A stretch of 64,000 nt of DNA, from the NCBI GenBank assembly GCA_049999805.1, contig JBNGIO010006141.1:151057-215056 (forward strand), in the 5' to 3' direction. Below, one piece after another: positions 41,344 through 64,000 of this stretch. A program made the position numbers and the translations under genes. The notes beneath the pieces were generated by a model. It was not told the DNA's origin. It saw only the letters and a program-made list of their open reading frames with translations, and did not search any database. This DNA is from Folioceros fuciformis. Taxonomy: Eukaryota. Each line of letters starts with the position of its first letter. Within the stretch, counting starts at the first letter, position 1.

Positions 41344-44300
41344 GCCTTGGTGGAGTAACACCCACTTCAACGGGGTGGGGGCAGAAACACGCAGTTAGAA
41401 GCCAAAGCAAGGGTCAGTTTTAAACACGGACACATCACTGGGCCTCCAAGTAGCCCGCCCTCCTCCTACACTAGACTTCCAAGTAGGCCGCCCTCCTCCT
41501 ACACTTAGACCTCCAAGTAGCCCGCCCTGCTCTTTATTCAAATCACGAGTCAACAAGAACATACAGCGCTGAAGGGTTAGAGAGAACTCCCCATAGGAGT
41601 TTCGGAGTCTAGGAGTTTAACAGCTCCTTCACAACACCTTTCATGTGTAGGAGTCTAGGAGTTTAGGAGTCTAGGAGTTCAACACCTTTCATGTGTAGGA
41701 GTTTAGGAGTCTAGGAGTTTAGCAGCTCCTTCACAGCACCTTTCATGTGCTCTCACAGCCCAAGCAACACATGCTCTCAAGGCGTAGCCCAAGCACCCCG
41801 TGCTCTCAAGGCTTTGAGGACGTACCCATCTCAACTCAACTTGCCTTAGCCCTTGGCTAGGTCCCCTTTTATACACAAGCTCAAGTCACTAACTTAGCAA
41901 CTACTTACTTAAGCATTTACTTAAGCCTTAAGCAATTATTCACTACCACACACTTTTTCCTAGGGTTGCATGCTTCTCATGCTCTTAGTAACCTGCTCTG
42001 CTAAACATGCCTCTGCATGGAGCTTACTTGCTTGGCACTCAAACCAGCGTTGTTACTTCCTCCCCCACTAGGAAAGAATCACTATCCTCAGTGATAACCA
42101 GTGTAACGAGCAATCATCCAAGAGCCTCTCTGAATAGCCTCTAATGTTACCCAAACTGGTGTTGAGATCCCACGCAACTTTACCACATATTGTGGTAGAG
42201 TTCCACGTCTCGTAGCCACGCTACCTTCTGCAAGGAATTCCTCAATCTCCTGCAGTCTTTGATCATGCTGCACCAAGATACTGTACTTCTTCCTGTCCAT
42301 ATCCTCTTTCTCTTTGCCTAGCACAAATGGTTTCAACATAGATACATGAAACACATTATGTGCAAAAATCCAGTCACGCAAGTCTAACTTGTAAGCCAAT
42401 TCTCCAATGCACTTCAAGACAACATATGGACCTCCAAACTTTGGTCTCAACTTTAAAGACAATCCTTGGGGTAGTGTGAAATGCTTCAGTTTCACCCAAA
42501 CTTTATCCCCAACATTGAAGACAGTTTCTCTCCTGTGCTTATCAGCATATCTCTTTTGACGTGCTTGAGCATTGGCTAATATCTTTTGGGCAACCTCATG
42601 CCTAGCCTTCAATTGCTCAACAAATTGGCGTGGATCTCCAGTGGTAATGTCGAAAACTTCAGCATTTAACATGGATACCACATCCAAAGCTGAATTTCCA
42701 CTCATCTCAAAGGGACTACATCCCAGGGAGCTATGTACTGTGTTATTGTAACAAAACTCCGTATCATCAAGATGATCAGCCCAATCTCTCTGATCAATCT
42801 GCACATAGTGCCTCAAATATTCTTCTTGAATTCGGTTGACTCGCTCAGTTAATCCATCAGTATCTGGATGGTATGCAGTACTCATGCATAGCTGCACATT
42901 CAAACTCTTCATCAAATGCTGCCAGAACTCTCCTGTGAATCTTGGATCTCTATCGCTCACAATCTGCCCGGGCAAGCCATGATACTTGTACACATACTTT
43001 TTGAACAAGTTTGCTGCCTCAGAAGCGGTCACTCACTTCTTGGTGGGGATGAAGTGTGCTTGTCTGGTGAATCTATTAACCACTGTCATGATAGCTGTAA
43101 ATCCATTACTGGGAGGCAAGGGCATGATGAAGTCCATAGAAATACTTTTCCATGGGCCTCTTGGGATAGGTAGAGGCTGTAATAAACCTCTCGGCTTAGC
43201 CTGCTCAACCTTGTCCTGCTGACAAACAGCACATGCCTTGACATAATCCAATGTATCTTGATAAATTCCTTGCCAATAGAACAGTCTCCTCAACTTCTCA
43301 TAAGTTGAATCACCTCCACGGTGACCAGTACTTGGCACATCATGACACTCAGCAAGCAATTTCCTCTTCAACCCTACAGAGTTAGGGATCACAACTCTCT
43401 TCTGTTTGTATATCAACAAACCATCGCTGAGTTTGAACTTGCTTCCTTTCTTTGCTACCCCATTCATCGAGTCCTGCACTTCAGGATCTTGCAGATAAGC
43501 TTCTTTTATCTCTTTGTGAGCATCCAAAGGTTCAATCACAATTGCCATTGCTTTCACGTATTGACTCTACTTGCGGCTCAGCACATCTACAACCTTATTC
43601 TCTTTTCCAGGTTTATATCTAAGAGTCACGTCATACATAGCTAGGAAATCTTGCCATCTAGCTTGCCTCGTATTCAACTTCAACTGGTTTGAGAAGTACG
43701 TCGTGCTGATATTATTAGTATACAGCACAAAAGACCTACCCAAGAGATAGTCTCTCCAAGCCTTCAGACAGTGGATGACAGTAGTCATTTCCTTCTCATA
43801 GGTGGGATACTTCCTCTCATAAGGATGCAACTTCCTTGACTCAAAAGCTAACGCCTTTTGGTCCTGCATCAAAACTCCACCTATAGCCACATTTGAGGCA
43901 TCACAATACACTTCCACATCTTTCCTGGGCTCATACATTCCCAACACCGAAGTCGTGCTCAACTTCTTCTTCAAGCATTCAAAGGCTGCTTGACACTCAA
44001 CATCCCATTTCCAAGCTTTTGCTGTCTTCAAGAGGTCAGTTATGGGGGCTGCTATCTTAGAAAACATATGTACAAACTTCCTGTACACAGAAGCCAAACC
44101 CATAAAACTTCGCACCTCATGAATATTTTGAGGGGGCTGCCAATCCTGAATGGCCTTAACTTTATCAGGATCCATCCTGATGCCCTCGGCAGAGACAATG
44201 AAACCTAAGAATGAAATTTCTGTCTTGACAAAGTCACACTTCTTGATTGCCAAGAACAAAGAATTCTCTTTTCGTCTTTGTAACACTTTCCTCAAGTGTT

Positions 44301-47300
44301 CAACATGTTCCTCCAAGGTATGACTATAGATCAAAATGTCATCCAGATAGATTACAACACACTTGTCCACAAGATCTATGAATATAGTATTCATAAGAGT
44401 CTGAAATGTAGCAGGTGCGTTAGTAAGTCCAAATGGCATGACAAGGAACTCAAAAGATCCATACCTTGTTCTACATGCTGTTTTGTACTCATGCCCCTCA
44501 TCAATCCTGATCTGATAGTACCCTGCCATCAAGTCTAGCATGGTGAAATACTTGGCACCCTTCAACCTGTCAAACATGTTGTCCATTATCGGCAAAGGAT
44601 ATGCATTCTTGATTGTGATCTGGTTCAAAGCTCTGTAATCCAGACACAATCTAAGCCCTCCATTCTTTTTGCGCGTGAATAACACAGGCGCACCAAAGGG
44701 AGACTTAGAAACTCTGACATATCCCTTTGCCAACAGGTTGGATAGTTGTCGTTTGAGTTCTTGCAACTCATCTTGTGACAATCTATATGGTGCTCTCAAA
44801 GGAGGTGTACTCCCTGGCCTCAACTCAATTTCATGATCCACAACTCTGCGAGACGGCAATGGTGGCAACTCATATGGCATCAAGTCCTTGAACTCATCTA
44901 GTACAGCTTGTACTTCTTTTGGGATGTGTCCTTCTCCTCTATAGAATCTTCTTCCAAACCATCCTCTAGTCCTTGGAGTACAACCAAGTATAACTCCTTC
45001 TTTTTCCTGAGGTCTTTCTTGAGCTCTCTTTTTGTAATCAGATGTACTGATACGCTCTCAAGCCTCTGGCTACAGCTAGCACAAACTCACTTTGTGCTTT
45101 CTGGATATCTCGATAGTGCGTGACTTAACATCCATTTGTACTTCATTAGATCTCAACCACTCCAGACCTAGGATGATATCATGGTCATCCATCTCGATTA
45201 CTGTAAAACTCACACTTCCTTGCCATGCATCAACTTGCAGCTTTACTCCATGCAATTCACCCAGAAATTGCAGAGTTTCTTTAGCTTGCTTGATTCTATA
45301 TGGCGTGGAAGTTTCAGTCCAATCAAGGCCAAGCTCTCTTGCCTTACGTGGAGTCACAAAATTATGGGTGGCTGCAAAATATAACAATAGCTCAACATCC
45401 AAGTCATTGATCTTGCCACATATATACATCAAGTCTCCACCCTCCCTGGAAATAGTGTCATCCTTGACACTTGATGACTCACCACATGTCCTCACAACAT
45501 GTGGCCCTTGGCGTCACCTAGACTCGTCAGGGAGCTCTTGGATCCTGGCTCTAGGAGCAGGTGGATTTGCGGCAACTAAATTCAAGTTGGGAGCTCCTGC
45601 ATGTGGACAGTTTCTAGCAAAATGTCCTTGCTCTCCACAACTATAACATACACCAGAGGTAGGTGCTACACATCGTCTTCCACGACTCTTGTTATCACCT
45701 CTACCTCGGCTTCTAGCAGTAGTCTCAGCAGTTGCACTATTCCCAGTGGTGGTGGCTCGTCCTCTGCCTCTAGATCTACCCTAAGATCTAGGATATCTCC
45801 CCTTGGAGATTGGAGCCTCTTGGACAAACATGTCCGGTATGGCATCTGCTGTTGCCATAGCCTCTAGCAACGTTTGAGGATTAGTCAATGCAATCCTGTT
45901 TTGAGCCCATCTCTTAAGGCCAGTAGTAAACTTGTGGAGTTTGTCCTGCTCATGCATCTTAGGACATTGCAAGCCAATAGAGCTGAATTCACTCACATAC
46001 TCCCGCAAAGTTCCAATATGCTTGACATTGTCGAGCATCCTTCGCGCCAAACTTGCAGCATTAGCTGGTTGGAAACGGAGTTGCAGCGCTTCCTTGAAGT
46101 CTGCCCATGTGAAGATTGTTGCTCTACGATTGCCTTGCCTTGCGTTCTCTACGTAAGTCCTCCACCAAGTAAGAGCATACTCGTCTAAGAAATTCGAGAC
46201 GTGCTTCAAGTACTCGTCTTGCGGCACTCCGCATGATTCCAAGTACGCTTCCAAAGAGAAATTATGAGAATAGGGTGTTAATACATTAGGTTTCGTTTGG
46301 TGAATGCGTTCATAGCTACTATAAGTCTAGGTGCCCGTTCATTTGGGTTACGTCCTTTATGAANNNNNNNNNNTAATTGTTTTATAGCAATTGGTCTACA
46401 CCAATTTCCATATTTTCTCAAGAAAAACCAAGAACTGATTTTCTCTACGTCACGCTCGCCTTTGTAACTCTTAGGCGCTGGAACACTCAATCTCAACTTC
46501 TTGTTGTTCTTAGGAGCACTGATCTCAGGCTCGGGCTCCACTTCTTCTTCTTCTGGCTGTTCATCAACGAGCCTACGTTTGCCTTTGATCTCTTGATCAA
46601 GGGCATAAGTCTCCTCATGATTTTTTGGAGCTTGTCCTCTATGGTGGTACCGGTCCTTTGCTCCGAAGTTCCTTTCTCTGTCGTTCTCACGACTTGAGGA
46701 TCCGCCTGTATCTCTTCCACAACGGCTTCGGTAAGCGGGGCCTTATCCTTCCTGCGGCGTACCCTCTCTGCTCTGCCTAGCTCAGCAGGATCTGCCATCG
46801 TTAACTTGCGTACTAGTCAAGGATGCTTCAACCTATGCCTTGGTGGAGTAACACCCCTTTCAATGGGGTGGGGCAGAAGCACGCAGTTAGAAGCCAAAGC
46901 AAGGGTCAGTTTTAAACACCGGACACAGCACTAGGTCTCCAAGTAGCCCGCCCTCCTCTTGTAGGAGGACTCGCAGCCAGCACCCTTACTGTTGCTCTTC
47001 ACCCTTGCTGCTGCTCTTTATTCAAATCACGAGTCAACAAGAACATATAGAGTTGGAGGGCTAGAGAGAACTCCCCATCTTTGCCTAAGCTAGGAGTTTA
47101 GCTCTCTCTTCTCTTGACCTCCTCCCGCAGCTCCTTCACAGCGCCTTTCATGTGCTCTCACAGCCCAAGCAACACATACTCTCAAGGCGTAGCCCAAGCA
47201 CCTCGTGCTCTCAAGGCTTTGAGGACATACCCATCTCAACTCAACTGAACTTGCCTTAGCCTTTGGCTAGATCCCCTTTTATACACAAACTCAAGACACT

Positions 47301-47580
47301 AACTGAGCAACTACTTACTTAAGCATTTACTTTAACTTTAAGCTATTATTCACTAACACACATTTTTTTTCTAGGGCTGCATGCTTCTCATCCTTTGCAC
47401 TAACTTAGCAACTACTTACTTAAGCATTTACTTCAATTTTAAGCTATTATACACTAACACACACTTTTTTTCTAGGGCTGCATGCTTCTCATCCTTTGCA
47501 TGGAGTGGCACTCAATCCTTACTTGCGCATGAAGCGTACTTCATGAAGCCTACTTGCTTAGCACTCAAACCAGCGTTGTT
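41344..47580 (-). mobile_element. Ty3/gypsy (chromovirus-like) LTR retrotransposon, inactive
   Basis: Direct repeats at about 41344-42057 and 46837-47580. gag with a CYSCGEQGHFARNC knuckle, protease with a mutated catalytic motif (LLYFAATHNF), RT (YLDD) and RNase H at 43567-44883, integrase at 42088-43557 with a chromo-like tail. PPT at 42058-42069. Multiple in-frame stops. Confidence 0.95.
46262..46420. mobile_element. Nested AT-rich insertion in gag, containing an assembly gap (N x10 at 46364-46373)
   Basis: Flanked by a duplicated AGAAA (46257-46261 and 46421-46425). Near-terminal TGAGAA...TTCTCA inverted repeat. Removing it restores gag SWFFSLEAY. Confidence 0.7.
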
Positions 47581-47598
47581 TTTGTGGACACTCTCTCA

Positions 47599-47846
47599 CT
47601 CTTACTATTTTAATGGTTTCAGCCGCGAACGGGCTGGATGCTGGTGGCCTAGGAAAGCCCAAACACGGCCCAGTAACCTCTCTTACTATTTTAATGGTTT
47701 CAGCCCCGAACGGGCTGGATGCTGGTGGCCTAGGAAAGCTCAAACACCGCCCAGTAACCTCTCTTACTATTTTAATGGTTTCAGCCCCGAACGGGCTGGA
47801 TGCTGGTGGCCTAGGGCAGAAAGCCCAAACACCGCCCAGTAACCTC
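47599..47846. repeat. 81-bp tandem repeat x3
   Basis: ctcttactattttaatggtttcagccccgaacgggctggatgctggtggcctagg... starts at 47599, 47680 and 47761. Confidence 0.92.
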
Positions 47847-47908
47847 TGTAGCCTGACTGTAAAGAAAAGACCAGAGAGAGCCAATGTGTCCCCTTTGTCA
47901 TGCCATAG

Positions 47909-48235
47909 CAGGACGCGGTAGTGGACCCGGGCCTGGCCCGAATCCGAGGGCGGTTGCATACCGGCGCCAAGTCCAAAAGAAGCGCGACTGGGGATCGGAG
48001 ATTCGGGCCGTGGCTGGGGTCGGGAAACGGGACTGAAGGAACCAGAGCCACAAGCAGAGGCACAACCACAGGCCAGAGCAGAGTCAAGAGATGGTCAGGG
48101 CCGGGCCAGCCCACCCCACAACAACACAACGAAATGCGAACCACCATTCCACCGTCTCGCTTTTTGCTACCTTATTAACCACCAGCAGCTGTAGCAGCAA
48201 CAGCAGCGGCATAAGCAACAGGAAGCATCTGGCAT
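47909..48235 (+). repeat. Diverged copy of the SERK upstream block at 52617-52990
   Basis: Shared colinear segments caggacgcggta, tggcccgaatccgag, aaaagaagcgcga, ggagattcgggcc, ggaaacgggactgaagg, gggccagcccacccca, ttgctacctta.taaccaccagcagc. Confidence 0.85.
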
Positions 48236-48650
48236 CATCTGGAACATCTTAAGCAGACAGAACAGGCGCCAGGAGGTGCTTTGTCTTGACCGCCGTAATC
48301 GAATGACCTCGAATGTTCCCCAACCACCACCTTGGTGCTGTAGTGTACATGGACTTATCCTACCATCTGTGCGATTTTTTTTCTCAAGTGCTTCGGTGTC
48401 CTGTTCATATTGTGGCGTTCCAAATAGACCAGCAAATTGTTCTTTTCACGACGACTGTGTCCCTAGGGTTTGCTCTTGACGGCATATCCGATAGCCACCT
48501 GTTCCCTGTGCCCGCACTAATGTTGCACCTCTCTATCATCACTTGTGTCCGGACGCCTTTGAAGAGAGTCCATTTGAATGTGTAGCATGAATTTCTGATA
48601 ACCTTCTCTGTTTGCAAGTAAACAAAGAAGATCGCCAGCAGGCTTCACAC

Positions 48651-51600
48651 TTATCTCGGGTACTGCTTCTCATCCCCGACCAAAAAACTATGCACCTCTT
48701 TGTCTGTCCACCAGCACTGACCTGGCTGCTTCCATGCCCTGATTCGTTTCCGCAGCGTTTGCATCTTCTCTGCCTGCTCCCACATCTGGGCACCAGTGTA
48801 TATGTTTGACATCAACACATAAGCTGCGGCATCTTTCTTGTCCAACTTCACAGCTTCATTGAACGCCTGGTTCCCCACTTCCACGTCACCCCACTTTCCA
48901 CACGCACCCAACAGGGTGTGCCAGATTGTAGCATTGGGGGACACGGGCATCGTCCTTACCAAACCTAGAGCCTCATCCAAGTGCCCGGCACGACCCAGGA
49001 GATCCACCATGCATGCGTAGTGCTTCTCGCTGGGTGTGATGCCATACTGTTTGCTCATAGCTAAAAACAACTCCCGCCCCTTGTTCACGAGACCTGCATG
49101 GCTGCACACTGTTAGAACACTGAGGAACGTGATGCTGTCTGGCCGCAAGCCGTCTTCTCTCATTCTCTGAACCAGGTCAAGGACCACTGCACTGTCACCT
49201 TGACAGGCGTAGCTTGCAATTAACGCATTCCAGGGGACTATGCCCCTTTCGGGCAAGCCATTAAACACACGCTGAGCATCCAAAGTGCTCCCGCACTTTC
49301 CATACATGTTGATCAAACTGCCAGCTACACACGAATCAGACTCGAGGCCTTGTTCTACGAGCTGCGCATGCAGCTGCCTACCCAGATGTAGAGCTGCCAC
49401 ATTTGCGCATGCTTGTAGGAGACACACGAACGTCACGGAATCTGCTCCAGCCCTGCCCTCTCCTTGCATAGCACTGTAGAGACGTAGGGCTTCCAGCCCC
49501 ATTCCCTGCTGCGAATACCCTGCTATCATGGCATTCCATGTCACCACATTTTTTTCACCAAGTCCGTCGAACACCATCTGCGCGTCATTCAGGCTGCCGC
49601 ATTTTGCATACATGTTCACCAAACTGTTGGCTACGAACACATCAGCTTCATGTCCTCGCTCCTTGATTTGCGCATGAAGCTGCTTCCCCTTCTCTAATGC
49701 TGACATGCCCACACTGGCACACGCCTGAAGGAGGCAGACGAATGTCAAGGAATCGGGTACAGCTATGCCTTCTTGTTGCATGCCACTGTAGAGGCGAAGG
49801 GCTTCCAGCCCCATACCCTGCTGGGAGTACCCTGCTATCATAGCAGTCCATGTCACCACATCTTTCTGAACCAGTCCGTCAAACACTCTCTCAGCCTCAT
49901 CCAAGCTGCCACACTTTGCATACATGTTCACCAAACTGCTGGCTACAAACACGTCGCCTTCGTGTCCTCGTTCCCTGATTTCCGCGTGAATATGCATCCC
50001 CTGCTCCAGCGCCGCGGTGCCCATGCCGGCGCATGCCTGAAGGAGGCAGACAAATGTCACAGAATCAGGAACTTCAGTGCCACCTTCTTGCATAACAGTG
50101 TACAGATGAAGGGCTTCGTGCCCCATTCCCTGCTGGGAGTATCCTGCTATCATGGCATTCCATGCCACCACATGCTTCTCCCCAAGTCCGTCCAACACCC
50201 TCTGTGCAGCTTCCAAACTGCCACACTTTGCATAAGCGTTTATCAAACTGCTGGCTACACACACATCAGCTTCAAGTCCTTGTTCTATTATCTCAGTGTG
50301 CAGCTCCTTTGCCTGCTCCAAAGCCGAGGTGCCCAAACTTGCACATGCCTGCAAGAGGCACACAAATGTCACAGAATTGGGTACAGCAACTCCTTCATCA
50401 CGCATAGCCCTGTAGAGACGAAGGGATTCCGAACCCACACCCTGCTGAGTATACCCTGCAATCAGGGCAGTCCACGACACCACATCCTTGTCACCAATCC
50501 CTTCAAAAACTCTCAGTGCATCTTCCAAGCTGCCACACTTTGCATACATATTCACTAAGCTGTTGGCCACAGGCACATCAGCCTCACGTCCTTGTCTCTT
50601 GATTCGTGCATGAAGCTGCTTCCCATTCTCCAACGCTGCGGCGCCCACACTTGCACACGCCTGCAGGAGGCACATGAATGTCACGGAATCCGGTACAGCG
50701 ATGCTCTCTTCCTGCATAGCACTGTAGAGGTGAAGCGCCTTCTGCCCCATACCCTGCTGGGAATACGCTGCTATCATGGTAGTCCATGTCACTACATTCT
50801 TGTGACCGAGACCATCAAACACTCTCTGGGCCTCGTCCGAGCTGCCACATTTTGCATACATGTTCACCAAACTGTTGGCTACAAACACATCAGCTTCATA
50901 TCCTCGTTCCTTGATTTGTGCATGAAGCTCCTTGCCCTTCTCCAAAGCTGGGGCACCCGCGCTTGCACATGCCTGCAGGAGGATGACGAATGTCACAGAA
51001 TTGGGCACAGCGCTGCCTTCCTGTTGCATGGCGCCGTAAAGACACAGGGCTTCCTGCCCCTTTCCCTGCTGGGCATACCCTGCGATCATGGCATTCCACG
51101 TGACAACATCTTTCCGACCGAGTCCAGCAAACACGCCTTGAGCATCCTCCAAGCAGCCACACTTTGCGTACATGTCCACCAAGGAATTGCAGACAAACAA
51201 ATCAGGCTCCACACCACCGGCCAAGACATCAGCATGCACCTGTTGCCCAGACATCCAGTCCGATCCCCTGGCACACGCCTGAAGGGCTGCCACGAACACA
51301 TGGCCATCCGGCTTCACACCAGACGTGCGCATCCGATGATAGAGCTGTATGGCCCGCTTGTCGTGCCCATGTTTCACATGGGCAGAAATTATGGAAGACC
51401 ACATGAAGGCATCTGGCTGCGACACAGCCTCAAACACGTCCATGGCATCCTGCAATCTGCCATGGGAAGCGTACATCCGCAGGAGGTGGTTGCCCAGGAA
51501 CGTGTCGGACCGATACCCCATGTTCAGCGTCAACCCATGGACGCGCCTTCCCAGAACGAGGTCCTTCTTCACAACACACGCCTTGAGCACAGCAAAAACG

Positions 51601-52151
51601 AGAGACCTGGAAACGAGCGATTGGTCTGCCTGCACCAGACGTTCCAAAGCCTCGACAGCCTGGACGAGGCGGCCTTCGTGGCAGAGCTCGCTCACGGTTT
51701 CAGCCGTAATGCTCCCACCGTCTCCGGCAGGCCTGCGAGAATGAGGAGCGTAGGGTGAGTCCGTGCGGGGGGTGATCAAACGACTCATGCTCATGCCCAT
51801 GTGCGTGTGCGTGTGCGTGTGCGTAGCCATATGCAAAGCAGCCAGCTGCTCATCCACCCAGGCGGTCTTGTGCAAGCTGTTTACCCAGAGGACCTGTCGG
51901 GAGTGCCTGTGCTGGAAGTCGGGCCGACGGCGGCCATTGTTGTGCTGCCACCAGAGCGTTGGATCCTGAAAGAATTGTCTCCACAAATCCTCCTGCCGAC
52001 CACGCCTGTCGCTGGAGGGCGGTACGGTAGCCACCCATCCCATTGCGCGGGCTGGAATTGTGGCCCAGCTGCTGCAACCAGACGATGCAATCCTTGACGC
52101 TTGTGCTGCCGAGTGAGGCAACGAGTTCCCTGGCCCTGTGGACGAGTCCAT
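48651..52151 (-). CDS. PLS-class PPR, E+ (WW-box, no deaminase) with an N-terminal OSB-type PDF motif
   Basis: N-terminal EDLWRQFFQDPTLWWQHNNGRRRPDFQHRHSRQVLW. About 8 near-identical PLS triplets, E1/E2, then WKQPGQCWWTDKEVHSFLVGD and a stop. Confidence 0.93.
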   Translation of the reverse strand: MDSSTGPGNSLPHSAAQASRIASSGCSSWATIPARAMGWVATVPPSSDRRGRQEDLWRQFFQDPTLWWQHNNGRRRPDFQHRHSRQVLWVNSLHKTAWVDEQLAALHMATHTHTHTHMGMSMSRLITPRTDSPYAPHSRRPAGDGGSITAETVSELCHEGRLVQAVEALERLVQADQSLVSRSLVFAVLKACVVKKDLVLGRRVHGLTLNMGYRSDTFLGNHLLRMYASHGRLQDAMDVFEAVSQPDAFMWSSIISAHVKHGHDKRAIQLYHRMRTSGVKPDGHVFVAALQACARGSDWMSGQQVHADVLAGGVEPDLFVCNSLVDMYAKCGCLEDAQGVFAGLGRKDVVTWNAMIAGYAQQGKGQEALCLYGAMQQEGSAVPNSVTFVILLQACASAGAPALEKGKELHAQIKERGYEADVFVANSLVNMYAKCGSSDEAQRVFDGLGHKNVVTWTTMIAAYSQQGMGQKALHLYSAMQEESIAVPDSVTFMCLLQACASVGAAALENGKQLHARIKRQGREADVPVANSLVNMYAKCGSLEDALRVFEGIGDKDVVSWTALIAGYTQQGVGSESLRLYRAMRDEGVAVPNSVTFVCLLQACASLGTSALEQAKELHTEIIEQGLEADVCVASSLINAYAKCGSLEAAQRVLDGLGEKHVVAWNAMIAGYSQQGMGHEALHLYTVMQEGGTEVPDSVTFVCLLQACAGMGTAALEQGMHIHAEIRERGHEGDVFVASSLVNMYAKCGSLDEAERVFDGLVQKDVVTWTAMIAGYSQQGMGLEALRLYSGMQQEGIAVPDSLTFVCLLQACASVGMSALEKGKQLHAQIKERGHEADVFVANSLVNMYAKCGSLNDAQMVFDGLGEKNVVTWNAMIAGYSQQGMGLEALRLYSAMQGEGRAGADSVTFVCLLQACANVAALHLGRQLHAQLVEQGLESDSCVAGSLINMYGKCGSTLDAQRVFNGLPERGIVPWNALIASYACQGDSAVVLDLVQRMREDGLRPDSITFLSVLTVCSHAGLVNKGRELFLAMSKQYGITPSEKHYACMVDLLGRAGHLDEALGLVRTMPVSPNATIWHTLLGACGKWGDVEVGNQAFNEAVKLDKKDAAAYVLMSNIYTGAQMWEQAEKMQTLRKRIRAWKQPGQCWWTDKEVHSFLVGDEKQYPR

Positions 52152-53109
52152 GGCTCACGGCGGCACAAGGTGAGGGCCCCTCATCCATGGATGCATGTCA
52201 TCCATACCACACTGTGACTAGTGCGCCATGTACGGAGCGTGCTGGTTTTGTGCTCTGGTACACGGCTGTCAATCACTGCCTTGGATGCTGCTGGGTGCCT
52301 TAGAATGGCATGACACGGCGGGGGAACAACCATTACGTTAAGAGGAAAGAAACAACCATAAACATATCCAGTCCAATCCAATCTACTCCACAGACACAGC
52401 CACACATCTACAGTCAGACCCCTGTAATTGGGAACAAATGGGAGTAGAAAAAATCGTCCCCTTTAGAGGCGTTCCCCTTGAGGCATTTTCATTTTTTTGA
52501 AAATAAATCGAAAGACGTAAAAAAATTCGAAAGATCTTTAAAGCTTTAAAAAATCCAAAATGCTACCTCATACTACATGCCGTGTGCCTGTTTGCTCCTG
52601 TTTAGTGGAGGAGGACAGGACGCGGTACCTAGTGGCCCTGGCCCGAATCCGAGCGCAAGTTGACCGGGTCCATATCTGCGTCAAGTCAAAAAGAAGCGCG
52701 AGGGGGGATTGGAGATTCGGGCCATGGCTGGCCGGGGTCGGGGTCAGGAAACGGGACTGAAGGTACCGAAGCCACGAGCACAAGCACAAGCTAGAGCAGA
52801 GCCAAGAGCCAGAGCTCGGGCGAGGCGAGGTGAGGTGAGGCTGGCCGAGACGAAGAAGAGATGGGCAGGGCCGGGCCGGGCCAGCCCACCCCACGGCACA
52901 CGGAAATGCGTACCACCATTGCATCACCTCGGTTCTTGCTACCTTACTAACCACCAGCAGCGGCAGAAGCAGCAGGAGACATCATCTGCCCCGGGCGCAG
53001 ACTCAACTGCGTCCGCTGCGCACGAGCGGGGGGACCCGGACCATGGTCATCCGATCAGCTTCCTTTCCACAAGAATGCGAGCTCCTCTAGGCTGTACGTC
53101 ACGCACAGG

Positions 53110-53252
53110 CCGGGGCAGGGCAGGCCAGGGTAGTGCAAGTGCAGGGCAGGGCAGTGCAAGGGCAAGTGCAGGGCAGGCCAGGGTAGTGCAAGTGCAGGGC
53201 AGGCCAGGGTAGTGCAAGTGCAGGGCAGGCCAGTGTAGTGCAAGTGCAGGGC
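53110..53252. repeat. G-rich ~26-bp tandem repeat in the SERK leader/promoter
   Basis: gcagggcaggccagggtagtgcaagt repeated about 5 times with variants. Confidence 0.85.
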
Positions 53253-57184: not shown

Positions 57185-59460
57185 TCACACCAACAGAAGC
57201 CGTCTTTGCAGTAGTGAACATGGTGTGCATCTACGTCTGAGCTCTCGCCGTTCCATCCGTGAGATGAGCTTTGTGCCTGTACGAGAATGGTCACACATCC
57301 GAAGGTTCTTTCTAACTGTCAACGTCGTACCCTGCGGTGTGTCGAGCAGACCGAATGCCAGAGCCAATTTCTCTGCATACCCACACAGGGCATCCTCCTT
57401 GTTCCTGTCCCACTCCCACTCCCAGTCCATGTTCCGGTTCCAGTTCCAGCTCCACAGAAACCTGCTTGTGTCAGCCTTTATCTGCAAGTTGAGCCCCTTG
57501 AGCCTGGAAGAAACATCTTCCCTCCTCTCCCCAACGCTGAACTGGTGCAGTACGCCATTCACTTGAACCACGGCCCTTGCAGGCTTCTTCTGACCGCCAG
57601 AACATGTCAGCAAGGTTGTGATGCGCTCCACAACATCCCACCTCCCAGCGTCTGCATAAATGCTTGACATGAGAGCATAGCCAGCAGCTCCTTGAGGCTC
57701 CAACTTCACCAGTCGATCAAAGGTGCGCCTGGCCATGTCCACACTACCATACTTCCTGCATGCAGTCAGCGAACATGTCCATGCAACATTATCGGCGTCC
57801 AATGCCATGGATTTCACCACACTTTCTGCCTCACTCAACCGGCCTGCACGAGCCAGCATATCCACCACGCAAGTGTAATGCTCGGGTGCAGGGTGGATCC
57901 CATGCTCTCCTCTCATGCTGCTGAAGATCCGTTGGCCCTCATCCACCATGCCACCACGACTCCACGCCTTCAAAACCGACATGAACGTGGCAGCATTTGG
58001 CCTCACACCCTCTTGCTGCATGCCATGAAAGCAGGTCACCGCCGAACTCCAACTGTTGTGCTGGGCATAGCCGTTTATGAAAGCTGTCCATGTCACCACA
58101 TTTCGGGTGGACAGCCTGTCGAACACACCTTGGGCATCCACTAGGCTCCCACACTTGGCATAGGTGTCCACCAACGTGTTTCCAACCCACGTATTGATTT
58201 CCAGCCCCTGTTCCAGAATCTGATCGTGAACCTTCTTTGCCTCTCGAATGTCTCCCATATTGCCACACGCTTTGAGCACGCTCACGAAAGTGAAACCATT
58301 TGGCGATACCACGCCCTCTTCTTGTTGCATTCGCCAATACAGTTTTTGGGCTTCCTCGTCGAGCCCATGCTGCACATATCCTGCAATCAGGATATATTCA
58401 CAGGCTTTCAGTATGGATGCGAAAGTGACCTTGTCTGGAATGAAGCCAGCTCGCTGCATGTTCCAGTAAAGTTCGATGGCCTCATGACCCCGACCCTGAT
58501 GAGCATACCCGGTGATCATAATGCTCCATGTCACCAAATCTCTGGCTGGCAATGTGTTGAACACTGTACGAGCATTGCTCAGACTGCTACATTTCACATG
58601 CATGTCCACCAGGGCATTTCCCACAAAAACATTTGACTGGATCCCGCTGTTGCTGAGATGAGCATGAACCAACAGGCCTGATGCCAAGTCTGATGCATGT
58701 GCACACGCTTTTAGAACAGCAACAATCATGTGGGCATCGGGCCTCACATTCGACTGACGCACCAGCATCTGCTTGCACAGCTTGATACCATTTGCTGCTT
58801 GTCCGTGGTCTGCATTCGTTGAGATAATTGCTGTCCACACACACCTGCTGGAAGCCACCAGCCTACTGAACAACTGATTGGCCTCCAGCAGCCTTCCTTC
58901 ACTTGCATACATGCGGATGATGTGGCTAGCTAGGTATGTCTCACGCCCATTTCGCACAGCGAAGGCATGCACACGCCTTCCCAGCTCAACATCTTTCCGC
59001 GCAATGCACTCCTTGACAAGATGTAGTAACGCATCCAGTAAAACCTGGGAGTCCTGCACGCACCTGGGAGTCTCTGCAGGGTCTCACGGAGCTGCCCAGC
59101 ATCACACATCGTGATCCAGGCTTCAGCATCCAGAATATTGGAAGGTGACGACCTGCACATAAAGCTGGCGAGTTGGGCATCACAACACCTAAAGTAAAGC
59201 CCCATGATCCTGACGACCATGCCTCACTACAAACTATACCTGACACCTTCTCCTGGTTCTGCTCTGCATCCAGCGGCGGTGTGCACCGTGTGAGAAAGCG
59301 ATATGACTGTCTCTGCAAGCTCCCTCTTTACCACCTGATTCTGATGGAGGTTCTGCGTGTGAGGATCCCCAACACTGAAATTGCAAGTGCAACTCCGACT
59401 GCGACTGCAAAGGTCCAGTTCGTTACCTTGCTCCACCAGTTGTCCCAACACTGCCACTGC
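57185..59460 (-). pseudogene. Decaying PLS-PPR DYW:KP gene
   Basis: The main ORF (57185-59059) begins at GTG and the N-terminal pieces lie in other frames. Internal motif deletion (LKACEY|ILIAGY), KKPARA, HAE changed to YAE, CxxC changed to CDHS, and a frameshifted C-terminus. Confidence 0.8.
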
Positions 59461-59929: not shown

Positions 59930-62644
59930 ATGGTTGGATCCTTGTCGATTCCCAGCAGGAGCCATCTGATTCTGGACCCCTTGGGCTGCAGTGATGCTGC
60001 CGTCATCTGTAAAGGCCGGACACGGGTGCCCATCAACAGCAGGCCCGAGGATGTCCTACTCTGCATGGATCAAAGGGGTGGTGTGCCCTCGGTCCAGGAA
60101 TACAAGAGGCTGTTGCAGCAGTGTATCCAGGACGAATCTTTGTCTGGAGCCAGGCGCGTGCGCGCTCACCTGGCAAGGAACGGGCTGGAGCTGCACAGAT
60201 GTTTGGGGGAGTATGTGGTGAACGCCCTGGCCAAATGCGGCAGTATGGTCGAGGCTGTGCAGCTTTTCCACCGGTTGTCACGTCCAAGTACGTTCTGCTG
60301 GACAGCACTCATTTCAGGCTACACCAGAGCCGGCCAAGCTGAGGAGGCCGTGCGGCTGTTCCGCCAGATGCAGGAGAAAGGCGTGCAGCCTAGCAAGTTC
60401 ACGTTCGTCAGCTTGCTCAAGGCTTGCGGAAGCCTGGAAGACCTTGATGAAGGCCACCGTGTTCATGCCCACGTTTTGAGATGCCGTTGTGAGACTGATT
60501 TGTATGTGGCAACGGCTTTGGTTGATATGTATGCCAAATGTGGAAGCATGGCCGATGCTCGCTGTGTCTTTGACACTCTGGCCGAGCCTGATGTGGTGGC
60601 ATGGACGGCGATGATTGCAGGATATGCCCAGCAACAGGAAGGACACCTCGCTCTGCAGCTTTACGCCCAGATGCAGGAGGTCGGCGTGCCACCGGATACC
60701 TGGACTTTGGTGAGTGTGCTCAAGGCATGCAGTAGCATTGCTGATACAGAAGAAAATGTGTCTGCAGCATTTGTAGAGGGGCAGGGGCAATTCATCAAAC
60801 CGAACACTCTGCGCAAGTGCAGGGCAATTCATGCTCAAATTGTGCACCTAGGCTATGAGGCCCATGAGTACATCGCGAGCTCTCTGGTGAGTGTGTATTC
60901 CAAGTGCGGGAATTTGACAGATGCGCAGGCAGTGTTTGACAAACTGTCCCGCCGAACTGTAGTCTCATGGAATGCCATGCTTGCAGCATATGTCCAGCAG
61001 GAGCAATGTGAGAAAGCGATACAACTGTACACCCAAATGCAGCAGCAGGTTGGAGCCGGAACAGGAGCAGGAGCCCCACCTCCAGAAATGAGGACTCTCG
61101 TAAGTGTGCTCAAAGCATGTGGCAGCCTTGCTGCCTTGGAGGCCAGTTTGGTCATTGGTGGGCAAGATATAAAAGTGAGGTCGCTGCAAAAGGGCAGGGC
61201 CCTGCATGCTGAGGTTGCTCGCTGGGGTTACGGGTCAGATGTATTCGTGGGGAGCACTCTTGTCAGTATGTATGCGAAGTGTGGGAGCATCCGGGATGCC
61301 CAGCTTGTGTTTGACACATTAGCTGTACGCAATGTGGTGTCATGGAATGCCCTGCTGGAAGCCTACGCCCAGCAGGAGAAAGGAGAGATGGCTTTACAAG
61401 TATATGGCCAAATGCTGGAAGCTGGCATCGCACCAGATGCGTGGACCTTTGCCAGCGCCCTGAAAGCTTGTGGTGGCCTTGCAGGCTTGGAGGAAGGCGT
61501 GCAGGTAGATGGGCGCTGCATAAAGGTGGAGACGCTGCAGAAGGGCAAATTGATACACGATCAAGTGGGTGGGCATGGGTGTAAGTCGGATCTGATTGTG
61601 TGCAATGCTCTGCTGAGCATGTATGCGAAGTGTGGGAGCCTGGTTGATGCGCAGAATGTGTTTGATGTCTTGCAGGAGCGTGATGTGGTGTCATGGAGCT
61701 GCATAATTACAGGATATGCGCAGCAAGAAGACAGCAGTGACAGGGCCTTGCAACTGTATGCAGGCATGCGGCACGCAGGCTTTCGAGCAGATGAAGCTAC
61801 TTTTTTAGGTGTTCTAAGAGCTTGTGGCAACACAGGAGCCCTGGACAAGTGTGGTGAGGCCCACAGAGATGTTGTGGACAGCGGACTTGACGGGAATTTG
61901 TGTGTGGCCAACTCTCTGATTCATGCGTATGGCAAATGTGGGAGCATGGTGGATGCCCAGGCTGTGTTTAACACACTGCTCGAGCCCAGTGTGGTGTCGT
62001 GGAGCGCTTTGATTGCTGGATATGCCCGGCAAGGGAACTGTGAGATGAGCTATCGAAGTTTTGAGGACATGGTACGAGCAGGCATGATGCCTGATGGGGC
62101 TACATTTCTTTCACTACTGTCTGCATGCAGTCATGCGGGCCTGGTGGACAAAGGCCTGGAGTACTTCGAATCCATGAGCAGAGATCACGGTGTGAGGCCA
62201 GCCAGTGAGCATTACGCTTGCTTGGTGGACCTGGTGGGCCGAGGAGGACTGTTGAGCAAGGCGGAGAGTGTCATTATGGACATGCCCATGGAACCTAGCC
62301 TGTCCTTGTGGATGTCGTTGCTTGGAGCCTGCCGGAATCATGGGAATATTATGCTGGGGAGACGGGCCTTTGATAGGGCAGTGGCGATAGCGCCGACACA
62401 TGGTTCAGCATATTTGCTGATGTCAAACATGTATGCTCATGCTGGCTTGTGGTCGTGCGTGCTGGAAATTGAAGAGTTGCGGCAGCGAGCAGGTGCGTGG
62501 AGGAAGCTTGGGCAGAGCTGGCTGGAGCACAATCAGGAGGTCCATTCATTTGTGGCAGGAGGAGAGGATGGCACACAAGAAAGCAGTGATGTACACAGAC
62601 TGGTGGACGAGCTGACATGGAAGCTGAAGCAAGGTCAACTGTGA
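59930..62644 (+). CDS. PLS-class PPR, E+ type (PG-box-like RKLGQSWLE, no deaminase), with elongated L motifs
   Basis: 904-aa intronless ORF with PLS triplets, E1/E2, WRKLGQSWLEHNQEVHSFVAG and a stop before any HxE/CxxC. Confidence 0.93.
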   Translation: MVGSLSIPSRSHLILDPLGCSDAAVICKGRTRVPINSRPEDVLLCMDQRGGVPSVQEYKRLLQQCIQDESLSGARRVRAHLARNGLELHRCLGEYVVNALAKCGSMVEAVQLFHRLSRPSTFCWTALISGYTRAGQAEEAVRLFRQMQEKGVQPSKFTFVSLLKACGSLEDLDEGHRVHAHVLRCRCETDLYVATALVDMYAKCGSMADARCVFDTLAEPDVVAWTAMIAGYAQQQEGHLALQLYAQMQEVGVPPDTWTLVSVLKACSSIADTEENVSAAFVEGQGQFIKPNTLRKCRAIHAQIVHLGYEAHEYIASSLVSVYSKCGNLTDAQAVFDKLSRRTVVSWNAMLAAYVQQEQCEKAIQLYTQMQQQVGAGTGAGAPPPEMRTLVSVLKACGSLAALEASLVIGGQDIKVRSLQKGRALHAEVARWGYGSDVFVGSTLVSMYAKCGSIRDAQLVFDTLAVRNVVSWNALLEAYAQQEKGEMALQVYGQMLEAGIAPDAWTFASALKACGGLAGLEEGVQVDGRCIKVETLQKGKLIHDQVGGHGCKSDLIVCNALLSMYAKCGSLVDAQNVFDVLQERDVVSWSCIITGYAQQEDSSDRALQLYAGMRHAGFRADEATFLGVLRACGNTGALDKCGEAHRDVVDSGLDGNLCVANSLIHAYGKCGSMVDAQAVFNTLLEPSVVSWSALIAGYARQGNCEMSYRSFEDMVRAGMMPDGATFLSLLSACSHAGLVDKGLEYFESMSRDHGVRPASEHYACLVDLVGRGGLLSKAESVIMDMPMEPSLSLWMSLLGACRNHGNIMLGRRAFDRAVAIAPTHGSAYLLMSNMYAHAGLWSCVLEIEELRQRAGAWRKLGQSWLEHNQEVHSFVAGGEDGTQESSDVHRLVDELTWKLKQGQL

Positions 62645-63669
62645 GGGATGGAGGCTCGAGGAATCGGGTGGTGGGAATCTATGGCAAAGCAATACATCCC
62701 ATCATTCTACTTGATAAGCTTGGATAAGCTTGACGCAGATGGGGTTGTGCGCCATGAGAGGGAGCCGATGTAGAGTGGTGATCAAGCTTCCACCTTCTCA
62801 ACACAATATGAACAGCACACTAAGCTTTTATTGGCAAAGAGACCAACAGCTGATGAGCAGGAAAACAGGAGGGCAGATCGTATAGATGGCAAAAATCCAC
62901 AAGATCAGGATGCCGTGATAACTGGTTCGTATCTGTGGTGGCCATTGATCGGAGCGTGCTGCATAGACGTTCACACGGAAGCGAGTGAATGTAGGCTGCT
63001 GTAGGGTCATTCCAGGGCAGGCATCCACGGAGCCCTTCTCCCTTTACAGTGCCACGCAAGGCGCTCAGAGTCGCTGCATCCGTTCTGTATCTCCTGCTGG
63101 CATGTGCAATTTGGAAGGCATCTCACCTCATGTCCTCCGGGGTAAAATGCTGTTAGGATGCGACATCCTTGTAGTGTCGATATCCCTTGGACCACACTTT
63201 GTGAAACAGACTCTGAGACTGCGAGAAGTTATCAAACACTTGGCTTGCATGCTCAAATCCAAACTAGTATGCAAAACTTCAGGTTGTAAACACATCTTGT
63301 CCTTGTTGCTGGATCTGCCCAGGTTCTCCTCCCCCCGCGCGCGGGATGCTTGGATAGGCAGAAGGCGCAACACTGCACATGTACATAAGAAATGAATCGT
63401 GCCTTTGACGATCACAGGCCGGACACTCTTGTTACCAACACAGACGTCTCCATCACCGACGAGTCAATCTTGCTAAATAGTATTTCTGCCATCTCCTTGC
63501 GGCGAACTGCAGGAATGGCACGTCGTGGAATGGCTGAGTTCTACAATCTCACGCATCCGGGACAGAAGGTGTGCATGAAGACCATGCCTCGCGGCTGATG
63601 TGAGTGGACAGACGATGAGGAGTAATCCTGCCGCGGCCTGGAAAGTTCCTTGAGAGCGGGGCCTGTAGC

Positions 63670-64000
63670 ATGGCCATACTGTGGCAACCGGATCCCTTGT
63701 GGACCCAACAAGGTGGTGAGTGTGCAAGGCATCTACGAGAAGCTCCCGATCACCTCACCTTATGGAGCCAACGCCTGGGAAACATTCAATCCTGCAGGTA
63801 CAGCAGTGCACAGAACCCAGCACCTCCACTAGCTCCCAGAAAATTTGTGGGTGGGGAAGGATTTTCCAGACATAGTCCTCGCCAGGAGCAGGAGCGCTTG
63901 TGGCATCAATTTTTTCTGGATCCTACCATGTGGTGGGACAACAGGCGAGACAAGAAGAGCTCCCGTTCCCCTGACTTCCGGCGGAAGGGGCCAAGCGGCG
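63670..64000 (+). CDS. Partial ORF with an OSB-type PDF motif (runs off the window; possibly another PDF-PPR or an OSB)
   Basis: Translated by hand: MAILWQPDPLW...RQEQERLWHQFFLDPTMWWDNRRDKKSSRSPDFRRKGPSG. The frame is open to the end of the window and is absent from the ORF track. Confidence 0.75.
   Translation, partial: MAILWQPDPLWTQQGGECARHLREAPDHLTLWSQRLGNIQSCRYSSAQNPAPPLAPRKFVGGEGFSRHSPRQEQERLWHQFFLDPTMWWDNRRDKKSSRSPDFRRKGPSG

What the first reader, a model, noticed from the sequence alone, without database searches (positions are those of the whole stretch)
51843..51992. PPR editing-type protein fused to an OSB 'PDF' single-stranded-DNA-binding motif
Seen: between the putative transit peptide and the first PPR motif, the 1166-aa protein reads EDLWRQFFQDPTLWWQHNNGRRRPDFQHRHSRQVLWVNS..KTAWVDEQL in the same uninterrupted ORF. 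Known: this matches the pattern LW..FF..P..WWDNR..K.....PDFKH......LW of the C-terminal PDF motifs of plant organellar OSB proteins, which bind ssDNA. PLS-E+ PPRs are normally RNA-editing specificity factors without such a module. Inference: a PDF-PLS-E+ architecture could tether an editing factor to organellar nucleoid ssDNA or R-loops (co-transcriptional editing), or reuse PDF as an extra nucleic-acid clamp. I do not know of a description of this fusion, but I cannot search for one.
Basis: partly seen in the sequence, partly recalled or inferred. Interest (0 to 1): 0.8.

Follow-up and report, generated by a model that had tools for sequence, protein, structure and literature searches.

The report
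PPR editing-type protein with PDF motif
A plant organelle RNA-editing-type PPR gene really does carry, near its start, the small DNA-binding "PDF" motif otherwise known from OSB proteins, and the same unreported combination turns up in many mosses, liverworts, lycophytes and ferns.

Summary
The minus-strand ORF 48651..52151 (1166 aa) reads exactly as quoted. Residues 51-110 are a true homologue of the OSB "PDF" motif. A profile built only from 56 PDF segments of 23 proteins that their sources name OSB matches it at 36.8 bits, E 3.8e-9 for a nominal 30,000-protein proteome. An exhaustive phmmer search gave 214 hits at E<=1e-3.

The rest of the protein is a PLS-class PPR array ending in an E motif. 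There is no DYW domain and no OB-fold, so it is not an OSB.

The fusion is not unique to this gene. In the proteins fetched, 70 of 72 that hold both PDF and PPR have one to three PDF motifs N-terminal to the PPR array. Named examples come from Sphagnum, Riccia, Selaginella, Diphasiastrum, Adiantum and Pteridium. A second, cut PDF motif lies at the window's right end.

Eight full-text searches found no description of PDF-PPR proteins. Two key papers are not held.

The function is inferred: an accessory single-strand nucleic-acid clamp. The window's copy is unusually divergent. No expression evidence was obtained.

The parts
48651..52151 (-). Whole CDS, 1166 aa, no intron needed: presequence, PDF motif, (Thr-His)n linker, PLS PPR array, E motif, stop
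   Evidence: ORF and translation; in-frame stop two codons upstream of the ATG
52002..52151 (-). Residues 1-50: Ser/Ala/Arg-rich presequence with almost no acidic residues, a presumed organelle-targeting peptide (inferred, not predicted with a tool)
   Evidence: sequence; a median of 54 residues precede the first PDF in 72 PDF+PPR proteins; similarity to P0065 begins at residue 22, upstream of the second Met (M37).
51822..52001 (-). A divergent copy with a loop of 8 residues; the commonest length is 11.
   Evidence: OSB-only HMM, 36.8 bits, E 3.8e-9; 214 hits; alignment; 10 of 15 conserved columns kept; AlphaFold2 model, pLDDT 88.7
51800..51824 (.). Hexanucleotide tandem repeat TGTGCG x4.2, read on the minus strand as (Thr-His)n. 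It lies between the PDF and the PPR part. A period of 6 keeps the frame if copy number changes.
   Evidence: translation
48891..51704 (-). Residues about 150-1087: PLS-class PPR array. It holds seven units of 101-104 aa; five 104-aa P-L-S triplets are 62-78% identical to one another.
   Evidence: PPR, PPR_1, PPR_2, PPR_3 with 11-19 stretches; unit lengths and identities
48711..48890 (-). Residues 1088-1147: E motif. The protein ends 19 residues later, with no DYW deaminase domain.
   Evidence: PF20431, 3.7e-13; tblastn with seven DYW-bearing or E-type C-termini finds no remnant in 46000-48800 beyond the E region itself.
63874..63999 (+). Second PDF motif (…LWHQFFLDPTMWWDNRRDKKSSRSPDFRRK…) with the canonical WWDNR..K signature and full-length loop. 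It is cut by the end of the window. The open frame runs from 63619, with a possible ATG at 63670.
   Evidence: OSB-only HMM 8.1e-12, A1 HMM 1.9e-14, HMM positions 5-42 only; translation; 47% identity to the target's motif over 36 residues

Best explanation
The gene encodes an organelle-targeted PLS-class PPR protein of the E subtype. It is an RNA-editing site-recognition factor without its own deaminase. Between the presequence and the first PPR motif it carries one copy of the ~55-60-residue PDF motif, otherwise known from plant OSB single-stranded-DNA-binding proteins.

It belongs to a recurrent architecture not found described in the literature searched: presequence, then 1-3 PDF motifs, then a PLS array, then E or DYW. 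This architecture is present in mosses, a liverwort, lycophytes and ferns.

Proposed mechanism (inferred): PDF is a small, independently folding, sequence-nonspecific binder of single-stranded nucleic acid. PPR tracts bind RNA with their N-terminal repeats towards the RNA's 5' end (established knowledge, recalled). The N-terminal PDF would therefore sit at the 5' edge of the footprint, farthest from the edited base. There it would add affinity or dwell time by clamping the RNA strand upstream of the recognition element.

Shown: the homology, the reading frame, the domain order and the recurrence. Inferred: organelle targeting, translation from M1, retention of PDF in the mature protein, the ligand and the effect on editing.
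For: 1. Homology. phmmer gave 214 hits at E<=1e-3. Of 10 top hits scanned with Pfam, 6 matched the SSB OB-fold family at E<=0.01: P0009 1.2e-15, P0023 9.1e-10, P0008 3.8e-6, P0030 8.5e-5, P0004 3.7e-4, P0015 5.5e-3. One search places their best PDF matches C-terminal of the OB-fold in five of the six; P0004 is the exception. A profile of PPR-linked motifs finds proteins that their sources name OSB1, OSB2, OSB3 and OSB4. An OSB-only profile finds the window protein at E 3.8e-9.

2. One frame. The ORF is uninterrupted. The linker repeat has period 6. Similarity to P0065 starts at residue 22, upstream of M37.

3. Recurrence. 9 of 10 long proteins with the motif near the N-terminus are PPR proteins with an E motif or DYW domain. 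17 of the 150 listed phmmer hits contain PPR. 40 of the 120 listed profile hits carry PPR Pfam families: 39 from Diphasiastrum and 1 from Adiantum, 6 of them with DYW. 70 of 72 PDF+PPR proteins have every PDF N-terminal to the PPR array. Pteridium transcriptome ORFs hold PDF and PPR in one ORF.

4. PPR-linked PDFs cluster on a tree of 382 motifs: 14 label changes against 73.4 in shuffles, with 0 of 500 shuffles as low.

5. Fold. The AlphaFold2 model is confident: pLDDT 88.7, helix, two or three short strands, helix.

6. Biochemistry from papers (passages seen). The PDF motif of AtOSB1 is sufficient for ssDNA binding (PMC6963530). OSB1 and OSB2 prefer ssDNA to dsDNA or RNA (PMC4166229).
Against: No expression or protein evidence exists for this gene. 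No listed run is on record as RNA, and the one run holding most of the stretch (X1) covers the flanks with mismatch-free contigs, so it is probably DNA.

The start codon is not established. Starts at M118, M120 or M122 would omit the motif. Targeting and the cleavage site were not predicted because no tool was available.

The window's PDF is atypical. It lacks the D and R of the WWDNR signature, has two K-to-R changes and one P-to-T change, and its loop of 8 residues occurs once among the 290 motifs that the loop pattern matched. It may be under relaxed constraint.

The reported in vitro preference of OSB PDFs is for ssDNA over RNA. PPR-linked and OSB-linked motifs share the same conserved residues. 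Both points favour the ssDNA rival over an RNA clamp.

No structural analogue was found to support a binding mode.
Confidence: 0.55

Rival explanations
1. Nucleoid tether. PDF keeps the ssDNA preference it has in OSBs. It anchors the PPR protein to single-stranded regions of organellar DNA, such as the displaced strand of transcription bubbles or R-loops, or replication and recombination intermediates. The factor then meets its RNA target co-transcriptionally.
For: PDF of AtOSB1 is sufficient for ssDNA binding, and OSB1 and OSB2 prefer ssDNA to RNA (passages seen). PPR-linked and OSB-linked PDFs share the same strongly conserved columns, W, P, W.D.R..K, PDF..K, LW, P.W, so the same ligand is the parsimonious expectation. 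One to three tandem PDFs in PPR proteins mirror the one to five in OSBs.
Against: There is no localisation or binding data for any PDF-PPR. RNA bound by the adjoining PPR array would be at very high local concentration. The window's own copy has lost two of the conserved charged residues.
Confidence: 0.25
2. Relic or untranslated leader in this particular gene. The PDF-PPR architecture is real elsewhere, but in this copy the motif is decaying. Alternatively it is skipped by a downstream start (M118-M122), or removed with the transit peptide, so the mature protein is an ordinary PLS-E factor.
For: The copy keeps only 10 of 15 columns conserved at >=80%, and its loop of 8 residues is the only one of that length among the 290 motifs the loop pattern matched. 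Three ATG codons sit just after the (Thr-His)n repeat. The four neighbouring full-length PLS genes in the window lack PDF.
Against: The frame is open for 130 codons with a stop immediately upstream of M1. All aromatic core positions are kept: W10, F14, W20, W21, F32, W42 and W51 of the motif. The AlphaFold2 model is confident. Similarity to P0065 extends upstream of the motif. M1 has G at -3 and G at +4 (read).
Confidence: 0.15
3. Protein-protein interaction module. PDF mediates oligomerisation or docking to other nucleoid or editosome proteins rather than nucleic-acid binding.
For: AtOSB2 is reported to be tetrameric (passage seen). The weak Foldseek rows include WW domains, which are peptide binders, but at E about 7 these rows carry no weight.
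Against: The only biochemical activity reported for PDF is ssDNA binding. The passages seen do not assign oligomerisation to PDF.
Confidence: 0.05

Closest known systems
[quoted passage not shown]
   Same: The window protein shares the ~50-60-residue PDF motif with the same conserved W, P, WW, PDF, LW and W positions. It is also presumably organelle-targeted.
   Different: OSBs have a central SSB-like OB-fold followed by C-terminal PDFs. The window protein has no OB-fold. Its single PDF is N-terminal and is followed by about 940 residues of PPR repeats. It is not an OSB.
PLS-class PPR proteins of the E subclass (organellar RNA-editing specificity factors)
   Same: It has a long P-L-S array and a terminal E motif. 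It sits in a cluster of PLS-DYW and PLS-E paralogues.
   Different: It has an extra N-terminal PDF domain. The papers held do not describe this for PPR proteins, and Pfam has no model that detects it.
PDF-PPR proteins in public proteomes, annotated only as 'pentatricopeptide repeat-containing' or 'hypothetical'. Examples: Selaginella XP_024517303, Sphagnum fallax KAH8950713, Adiantum KAI5076972, Riccia KAL3675360, many Diphasiastrum KAJ7… entries.
   Same: They have the same domain order: a short leader, then PDF, then the PLS array, then E or DYW. The nearest motif is that of P0065, at 48% identity, a 753-aa PDF-PLS-DYW protein from an unnamed assembly.
   Different: Most carry a canonical WWDNR..K loop, and 45 of 72 have two or more PDFs. 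The window protein has one divergent PDF and no DYW domain.
Other PPR proteins with accessory nucleic-acid modules (PPR-SMR, PPR-RRM, PRORP; named from memory, with RRM-PPR fusions also reported in PMC13386178)
   Same: They follow the same principle: a PPR array combined with a second nucleic-acid-related domain.
   Different: The domain is different, and in those families it is mostly C-terminal or catalytic. PDF is a small N-terminal binding motif.

Membership tests
PDF motif (as defined in OSB proteins) | A ~50-residue motif with the Pro-Asp-Phe signature | tested here: met
   P-D-F at residues 77-79 of the protein. These columns are invariant or nearly invariant in alignments A1 and A2.
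PDF motif (as defined in OSB proteins) | A significant match to a profile built from PDF motifs of bona fide OSB proteins | tested here: met
   An HMM of 56 segments from 23 source-named OSB proteins matches at 36.8 bits, E 3.8e-9 (Z=30,000), residues 51-110. Caveat: the segment boundaries were set with a profile that included the window's motif.
PDF motif (as defined in OSB proteins) | The full conserved signature W..P..WWDNR..K…PDF..K…LW…P.W | tested here: inconclusive
   10 of 15 columns conserved at >=80% are kept. D to Q, R to N, K to R (twice) and P to T differ. The loop is 8 residues where 11 is the commonest length.
PDF motif (as defined in OSB proteins) | Binds single-stranded DNA | not testable with these tools
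   Known only for AtOSB1 and AtOSB2, from passages in PMC6963530 and PMC4166229.
OSB protein family | A central SSB-like OB-fold domain preceding the PDF motifs | tested here: not met
   Pfam SSB (PF00436) was not found in the 1166-aa protein or its first 130 aa at E<=10. The space is occupied by PPR repeats. Caveat: OSB OB-folds are weakly conserved.
PLS-class PPR, E subclass (RNA-editing specificity factors) | A tandem array of P, L and S PPR motifs | tested here: met
   PPR_2 1.8e-124 with 16 stretches and PPR 2.4e-107 with 19 stretches. The array has regular 101-104-aa units.
PLS-class PPR, E subclass (RNA-editing specificity factors) | A C-terminal E motif | tested here: met
   PF20431 at 3.7e-13, residues 1088-1147.
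PLS-class PPR, E subclass (RNA-editing specificity factors) | Specifies a C-to-U (or U-to-C) site in an organellar transcript | not testable with these tools
   No organelle genome or transcriptome of this organism was available. The PPR-code target was not predicted.
PLS-DYW PPR | A C-terminal DYW deaminase domain | tested here: not met
   No PF14432 hit. No remnant in any frame downstream of the stop. Four neighbouring genes do have it.
PDF-PPR architecture (defined here) | One or more PDF motifs N-terminal to a PLS PPR array in a single polypeptide | tested here: met
   Residues 44-114 against PPR from about residue 149. The same order holds in 70 of 72 proteins with both.

The most novel reading that the evidence does not exclude
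PDF-PPR proteins are an ancient subfamily of organellar RNA-editing factors that arose early in land plants and is not on record. They persist in bryophytes, lycophytes and ferns, with dozens of paralogues in one lycophyte. No seed-plant example appeared among the named hits.

Their built-in single-strand-binding module either couples editing physically to the transcribing or recombining organellar chromosome, or acts as a cis affinity booster. The second role would resemble what trans-acting helper proteins such as MORF/RIP do for PLS proteins in seed plants (that role is recalled, not tested). Because no Pfam model detects PDF, domain-based surveys have missed the whole group.
Probability: 0.3. 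Interest if true: 0.8.

Novelty: new variant of a known kind. Interest (0 to 1): 0.62.

Why it matters
PPR editing factors are among the largest and most studied plant gene families and are being engineered as programmable RNA editors. A conserved extra nucleic-acid-binding domain on many natural factors in early-diverging land plants would be a new component of the editing machinery.

It could explain how PLS proteins in these lineages achieve affinity or nucleoid association, and it could become a portable module for synthetic PPR tools.

It also widens the known range of the PDF motif beyond OSB proteins. That makes the ligand question, ssDNA or RNA, directly testable with natural fusion partners. 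The finding further shows that surveys which require an OB-fold (PMC13393729) or rely on Pfam domains miss this group.

Tried and rejected
**Chance resemblance.** Rejected on the E-values.

**Word-based protein searches.** Searches with the single motif (lengths 'longer') and with residues 1-200 found nothing. Only the exhaustive search and the profile search worked.

**Own genome.** None is held, so the proteome-wide count of PDF-PPR genes in this organism could not be made.

**Expression.** No RNA holder is listed. Four runs were laid. X1 holds 0.82 of the sampled words, but its mismatch-free contigs also cover 47800-48693 and 52663-53144 outside the ORF, so it is most likely DNA and possibly the source sample. 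X2, X3 and X15 gave only diverged paralogue pieces over the PPR repeats. Nothing can be said about transcription, the start site or the junction. Contigs break at the repeat at 51782-51835.

**Structure.**
- No PDB chain matches the PDF profile by sequence at E<=1.
- Foldseek against the PDB found nothing at E<=1e-3; the weak rows at E about 7 include WW domains.
- VIA-align against 48,161 chains gave a best Z of 3.6, with no match at Z>=5.
- No fold assignment is made.

**ESM Atlas.** Residues 1-330 returned only generic PPR clusters.

**Earlier findings of the scan.** None were found.

**Promoter and terminator scan.** The bacterial-type scan upstream of the gene is not applicable to a plant nuclear gene and is disregarded.

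**DYW remnant.** None was found downstream of the stop.

**Literature.** Eight full-text searches, with passages read in seven papers, found no PDF-PPR description. Zaegel et al. 2006 (PMC1785405) and Gutmann et al. 2020 (doi 10.1016/j.molp.2019.11.002) are not held. Supplementary tables are closed. A mention in either of those papers or in supplements would remove the novelty. One paper reading failed on a two-letter search term and was not repeated.

**Not done.** Transit-peptide prediction, PPR-code target prediction, and a complex or oligomer prediction.

Full report
**1. What is in the sequence**

The window holds an uninterrupted ORF on the minus strand, 48651..52151, of 1166 codons. An in-frame stop lies two codons upstream of the first ATG.

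Pfam finds PPR families along residues about 150-1087 and an E motif at residues 1088-1147. It finds no DYW domain, no E+ motif, no SSB OB-fold, and nothing at all in the first 130 residues. tblastn with DYW-bearing C-termini of neighbouring genes and relatives finds no DYW remnant downstream of the stop. The protein is therefore a PLS-E PPR protein with an N-terminal extension that Pfam cannot name.

**2. Is the extension a PDF motif?**

Yes. An exhaustive phmmer search with the 61-residue stretch (P0003) against 1.84 billion cluster representatives returned 214 proteins at E<=1e-3 and 27 at E<=1e-10. Many are 300-500 residues long with two to five copies of the motif near the C-terminus.

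Of ten top hits scanned with Pfam, six matched the SSB OB-fold family at E<=0.01, for example P0009 at 1.2e-15 and P0023 at 9.1e-10. In five of the six, one search places the best motif match C-terminal of the OB-fold; P0004 is the exception. OB-fold followed by PDFs is the OSB architecture described in the papers I read (passages in PMC6963530, PMC4166229 and PMC13393729).

A profile of PPR-linked motifs (alignment A1) found 1030 proteins at E<=1e-3 among 8000 candidates scored. These include proteins that their sources name OSB1, OSB2, OSB3 and OSB4 in many angiosperms.

I built an HMM from 56 PDF segments of 23 source-named OSB proteins only. It matches residues 51-110 of the window protein at 36.8 bits, E 3.8e-9 for a nominal proteome of 30,000. 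One caveat applies: the segment boundaries were drawn with a profile that included the window's motif, although the sequences themselves are OSB sequences.

A six-frame scan of all 64 kb with both profiles finds only two sites. One is this ORF. The other is a second motif at 63874-63999 (+), cut by the window's end.

**3. The fusion is recurrent**

- Of ten long hits with the motif near the N-terminus, nine are PPR proteins with an E motif or DYW domain.
- Their sources name Adiantum capillus-veneris, Selaginella moellendorffii, several Sphagnum species (a 39-member cluster), Diphasiastrum complanatum and Riccia sorocarpa.
- Among the 150 listed phmmer hits, 17 contain a PPR part.
- Among the 120 listed profile hits, 40 carry PPR Pfam families: 39 from Diphasiastrum and 1 from Adiantum. 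Six of them also have the DYW deaminase family (my count of the listing).
- Six further representatives are ORFs of a Pteridium aquilinum transcriptome assembly. Several hold PDF and PPR in one ORF, for example P0039. This is transcript-level support for the architecture, in another species.
- Over all proteins fetched, 72 hold both PDF and PPR. In 70 of them every PDF lies N-terminal to the first PPR match. The two exceptions are a 155-aa fragment with overlapping envelopes and a 1362-aa model with two PDF blocks.
- 27 of the 72 have one PDF, 36 have two, 8 have three and 1 has four. A median of 54 residues precede the first PDF, close to the 43-50 in the window protein.
- No seed-plant protein among the named PDF+PPR hits was seen. 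The lists are capped, so absence from seed plants is not shown.

On a quick maximum-likelihood tree of 382 non-redundant motifs, the PPR-linked ones are strongly clustered: 14 label changes against 73.4 in shuffles, with 0 of 500 shuffles as low. The tree rests on 75 columns and is poorly resolved. Some 'non-PPR' rows are probably fragments of PPR genes. One origin or a few origins cannot be told apart.

The window's nearest motif is that of P0065, at 48% identity. P0065 is a 753-aa protein from an unnamed assembly with presequence, PDF, PLS array and DYW. Its PPR part resembles the window's gene family.

**4. Is PDF part of this protein?**

Evidence for:
- The frame is open through 130 codons and stops immediately upstream.
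- The repeat between PDF and PPR is a hexamer, TGTGCG x4.2 at 51800-51824, read as (Thr-His)n. Copy-number changes therefore keep the frame.
- Similarity to P0065 begins at residue 22, upstream of the second Met, M37.
- M1 has G at -3 and G at +4 (read).
- The first 50 residues are Ser/Ala/Arg-rich with almost no acidic residues, as expected of a targeting peptide. This is my reading; no predictor was available.

Evidence against or open:
- Three ATG codons follow the repeat (M118, M120, M122).
- No RNA data could be obtained (see Tried and rejected).
- The cleavage site is unknown.

**5. The window's copy is divergent**

Against 382 motifs, 15 columns are conserved at >=80%. The window keeps 10 of them. 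It differs by D to Q and R to N in the WWDNR signature, by two K-to-R changes, and by one P-to-T change.

Its loop between WW and PDF is 8 residues, where 11 is the commonest length. It is the only loop of that length among the 290 motifs matched by my loop pattern. The second motif at the window's end keeps WWDNRRDKKSSRSPDF and is 47% identical to the first over 36 residues. The target copy therefore looks like a derived paralogue.

All aromatic positions are kept. AlphaFold2 with a 41-row alignment gives a confident model: mean pLDDT 88.7; helix 2-15, short strands at 20-22, 32-34 and 40-41, helix 50-60.

No solved structure matches. This holds by sequence, by Foldseek (nothing at E<=1e-3) and by VIA-align (best Z 3.6). 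The fold gives no mechanistic lead.

**6. How it most likely works**

Shown: the homology, the domain order and the recurrence. Everything below is inference.

The only activity reported for PDF is binding of single-stranded DNA. The motif of AtOSB1 is sufficient for it (PMC6963530, passage). OSB1 and OSB2 prefer ssDNA to dsDNA or RNA (PMC4166229, passage).

PPR arrays bind RNA with their N-terminal repeats at the 5' end of the footprint (established knowledge, recalled). An N-terminal PDF therefore sits at the upstream edge, far from the edited base.

My preferred reading is a sequence-nonspecific single-strand clamp that adds affinity or dwell time on the RNA held by the adjacent array.

It is favoured by the ssDNA preference of OSBs and by the identical conserved residues in PPR-linked and OSB-linked motifs. 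I cannot separate the two readings with these tools.

For this particular gene, a decaying or untranslated motif remains possible.

**7. Comparison with what is known, and novelty**

The protein is not an OSB, because it has no OB-fold. It is a PLS-E PPR protein with an added PDF.

Eight full-text searches found no paper that links PDF to PPR proteins. A 2026 survey of OSB genes kept only proteins with both OB-fold and PDF and does not mention PPR. A 2026 kingdom-wide survey of editing factors that lists domain fusions has no occurrence of OSB or PDF. Because no Pfam family matches the motif, domain-based surveys would miss it.

The founding OSB paper (Zaegel 2006) and the main PPR-diversity paper (Gutmann 2020) are not held, and supplements are closed. 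Prior mention cannot be excluded.

I rate this as a new variant of a known kind. The sequences are public, but I did not find the architecture described.

**8. Context**

The gene lies in a cluster of PLS genes. Four have DYW domains and one more is E-type. Several DYW genes carry a K-P-A-x-A-like box. From memory, this box marks the DYW:KP type linked to U-to-C editing. That process is reported only in hornworts, some lycophytes and ferns (abstract of PMC4915041).

Noticed in passing
window 63619-63999 (+): A second gene start with a canonical PDF motif (WWDNRRDKKSSRSPDF) runs off the right end of the window. Whether it continues into a PPR array or an OB-fold cannot be seen.
   Followed up: partly
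window 32385-35525 (-), 35549-37642 (+), 38292-41006 (-), 57185-58912 (-), 59930-62644 (+): This is a cluster of PLS-class PPR genes. Four have DYW deaminase domains and one has an E motif only. None has a PDF motif. The first two are divergently arranged, only 23 bp apart.
   Followed up: partly
window 38292-41006 (-), 32385-35525 (-), 35549-37642 (+), 57185-58912 (-): C-terminal regions: The DYW genes carry KKPAKA, KKAAKA or KKPARA boxes, a GHAEKLA or GYAEKLA motif, and ends other than D-Y-W. From memory this resembles the DYW:KP type linked to U-to-C editing. It would place the organism among hornworts, lycophytes or ferns. This was not tested against a KP-specific model.
   Followed up: no
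window 57185-58912 (-): This PLS-DYW ORF looks damaged. The DYW match covers only profile positions 15-71, the C-terminus reads out of pattern (…CDHSRTGTK…RRRCTPCSLLQRRLLLV), and a W/N/E-rich insert precedes it. It is possibly a pseudogene or frameshifted copy.
   Followed up: no
window 43567-44880 (-): A 437-aa ORF reads like a retrotransposon reverse transcriptase (…YLDDILIYS…). It lies between PPR genes. It was judged by eye only.
   Followed up: no
window 38292-41006 (-), about residues 315-325 of the protein: A run of ten or more glutamines (QQQQQQQQQQQ) interrupts a PPR motif in the 904-aa PLS-DYW protein.
   Followed up: no
window 49773-51758 (+): Long antisense ORFs (261 and 388 aa) lie opposite the PPR array. 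They are repetitive mirror images of the PLS repeats and most likely not genes.
   Followed up: no
P0199 (Diphasiastrum, 1362 aa), P0095 (Coptis, kinesin), P0030 (Striga, ICR2-like): A few database proteins place PDF motifs inside or beside unrelated domains, or show two PDF blocks. They look like merged gene models rather than real architectures.
   Followed up: no
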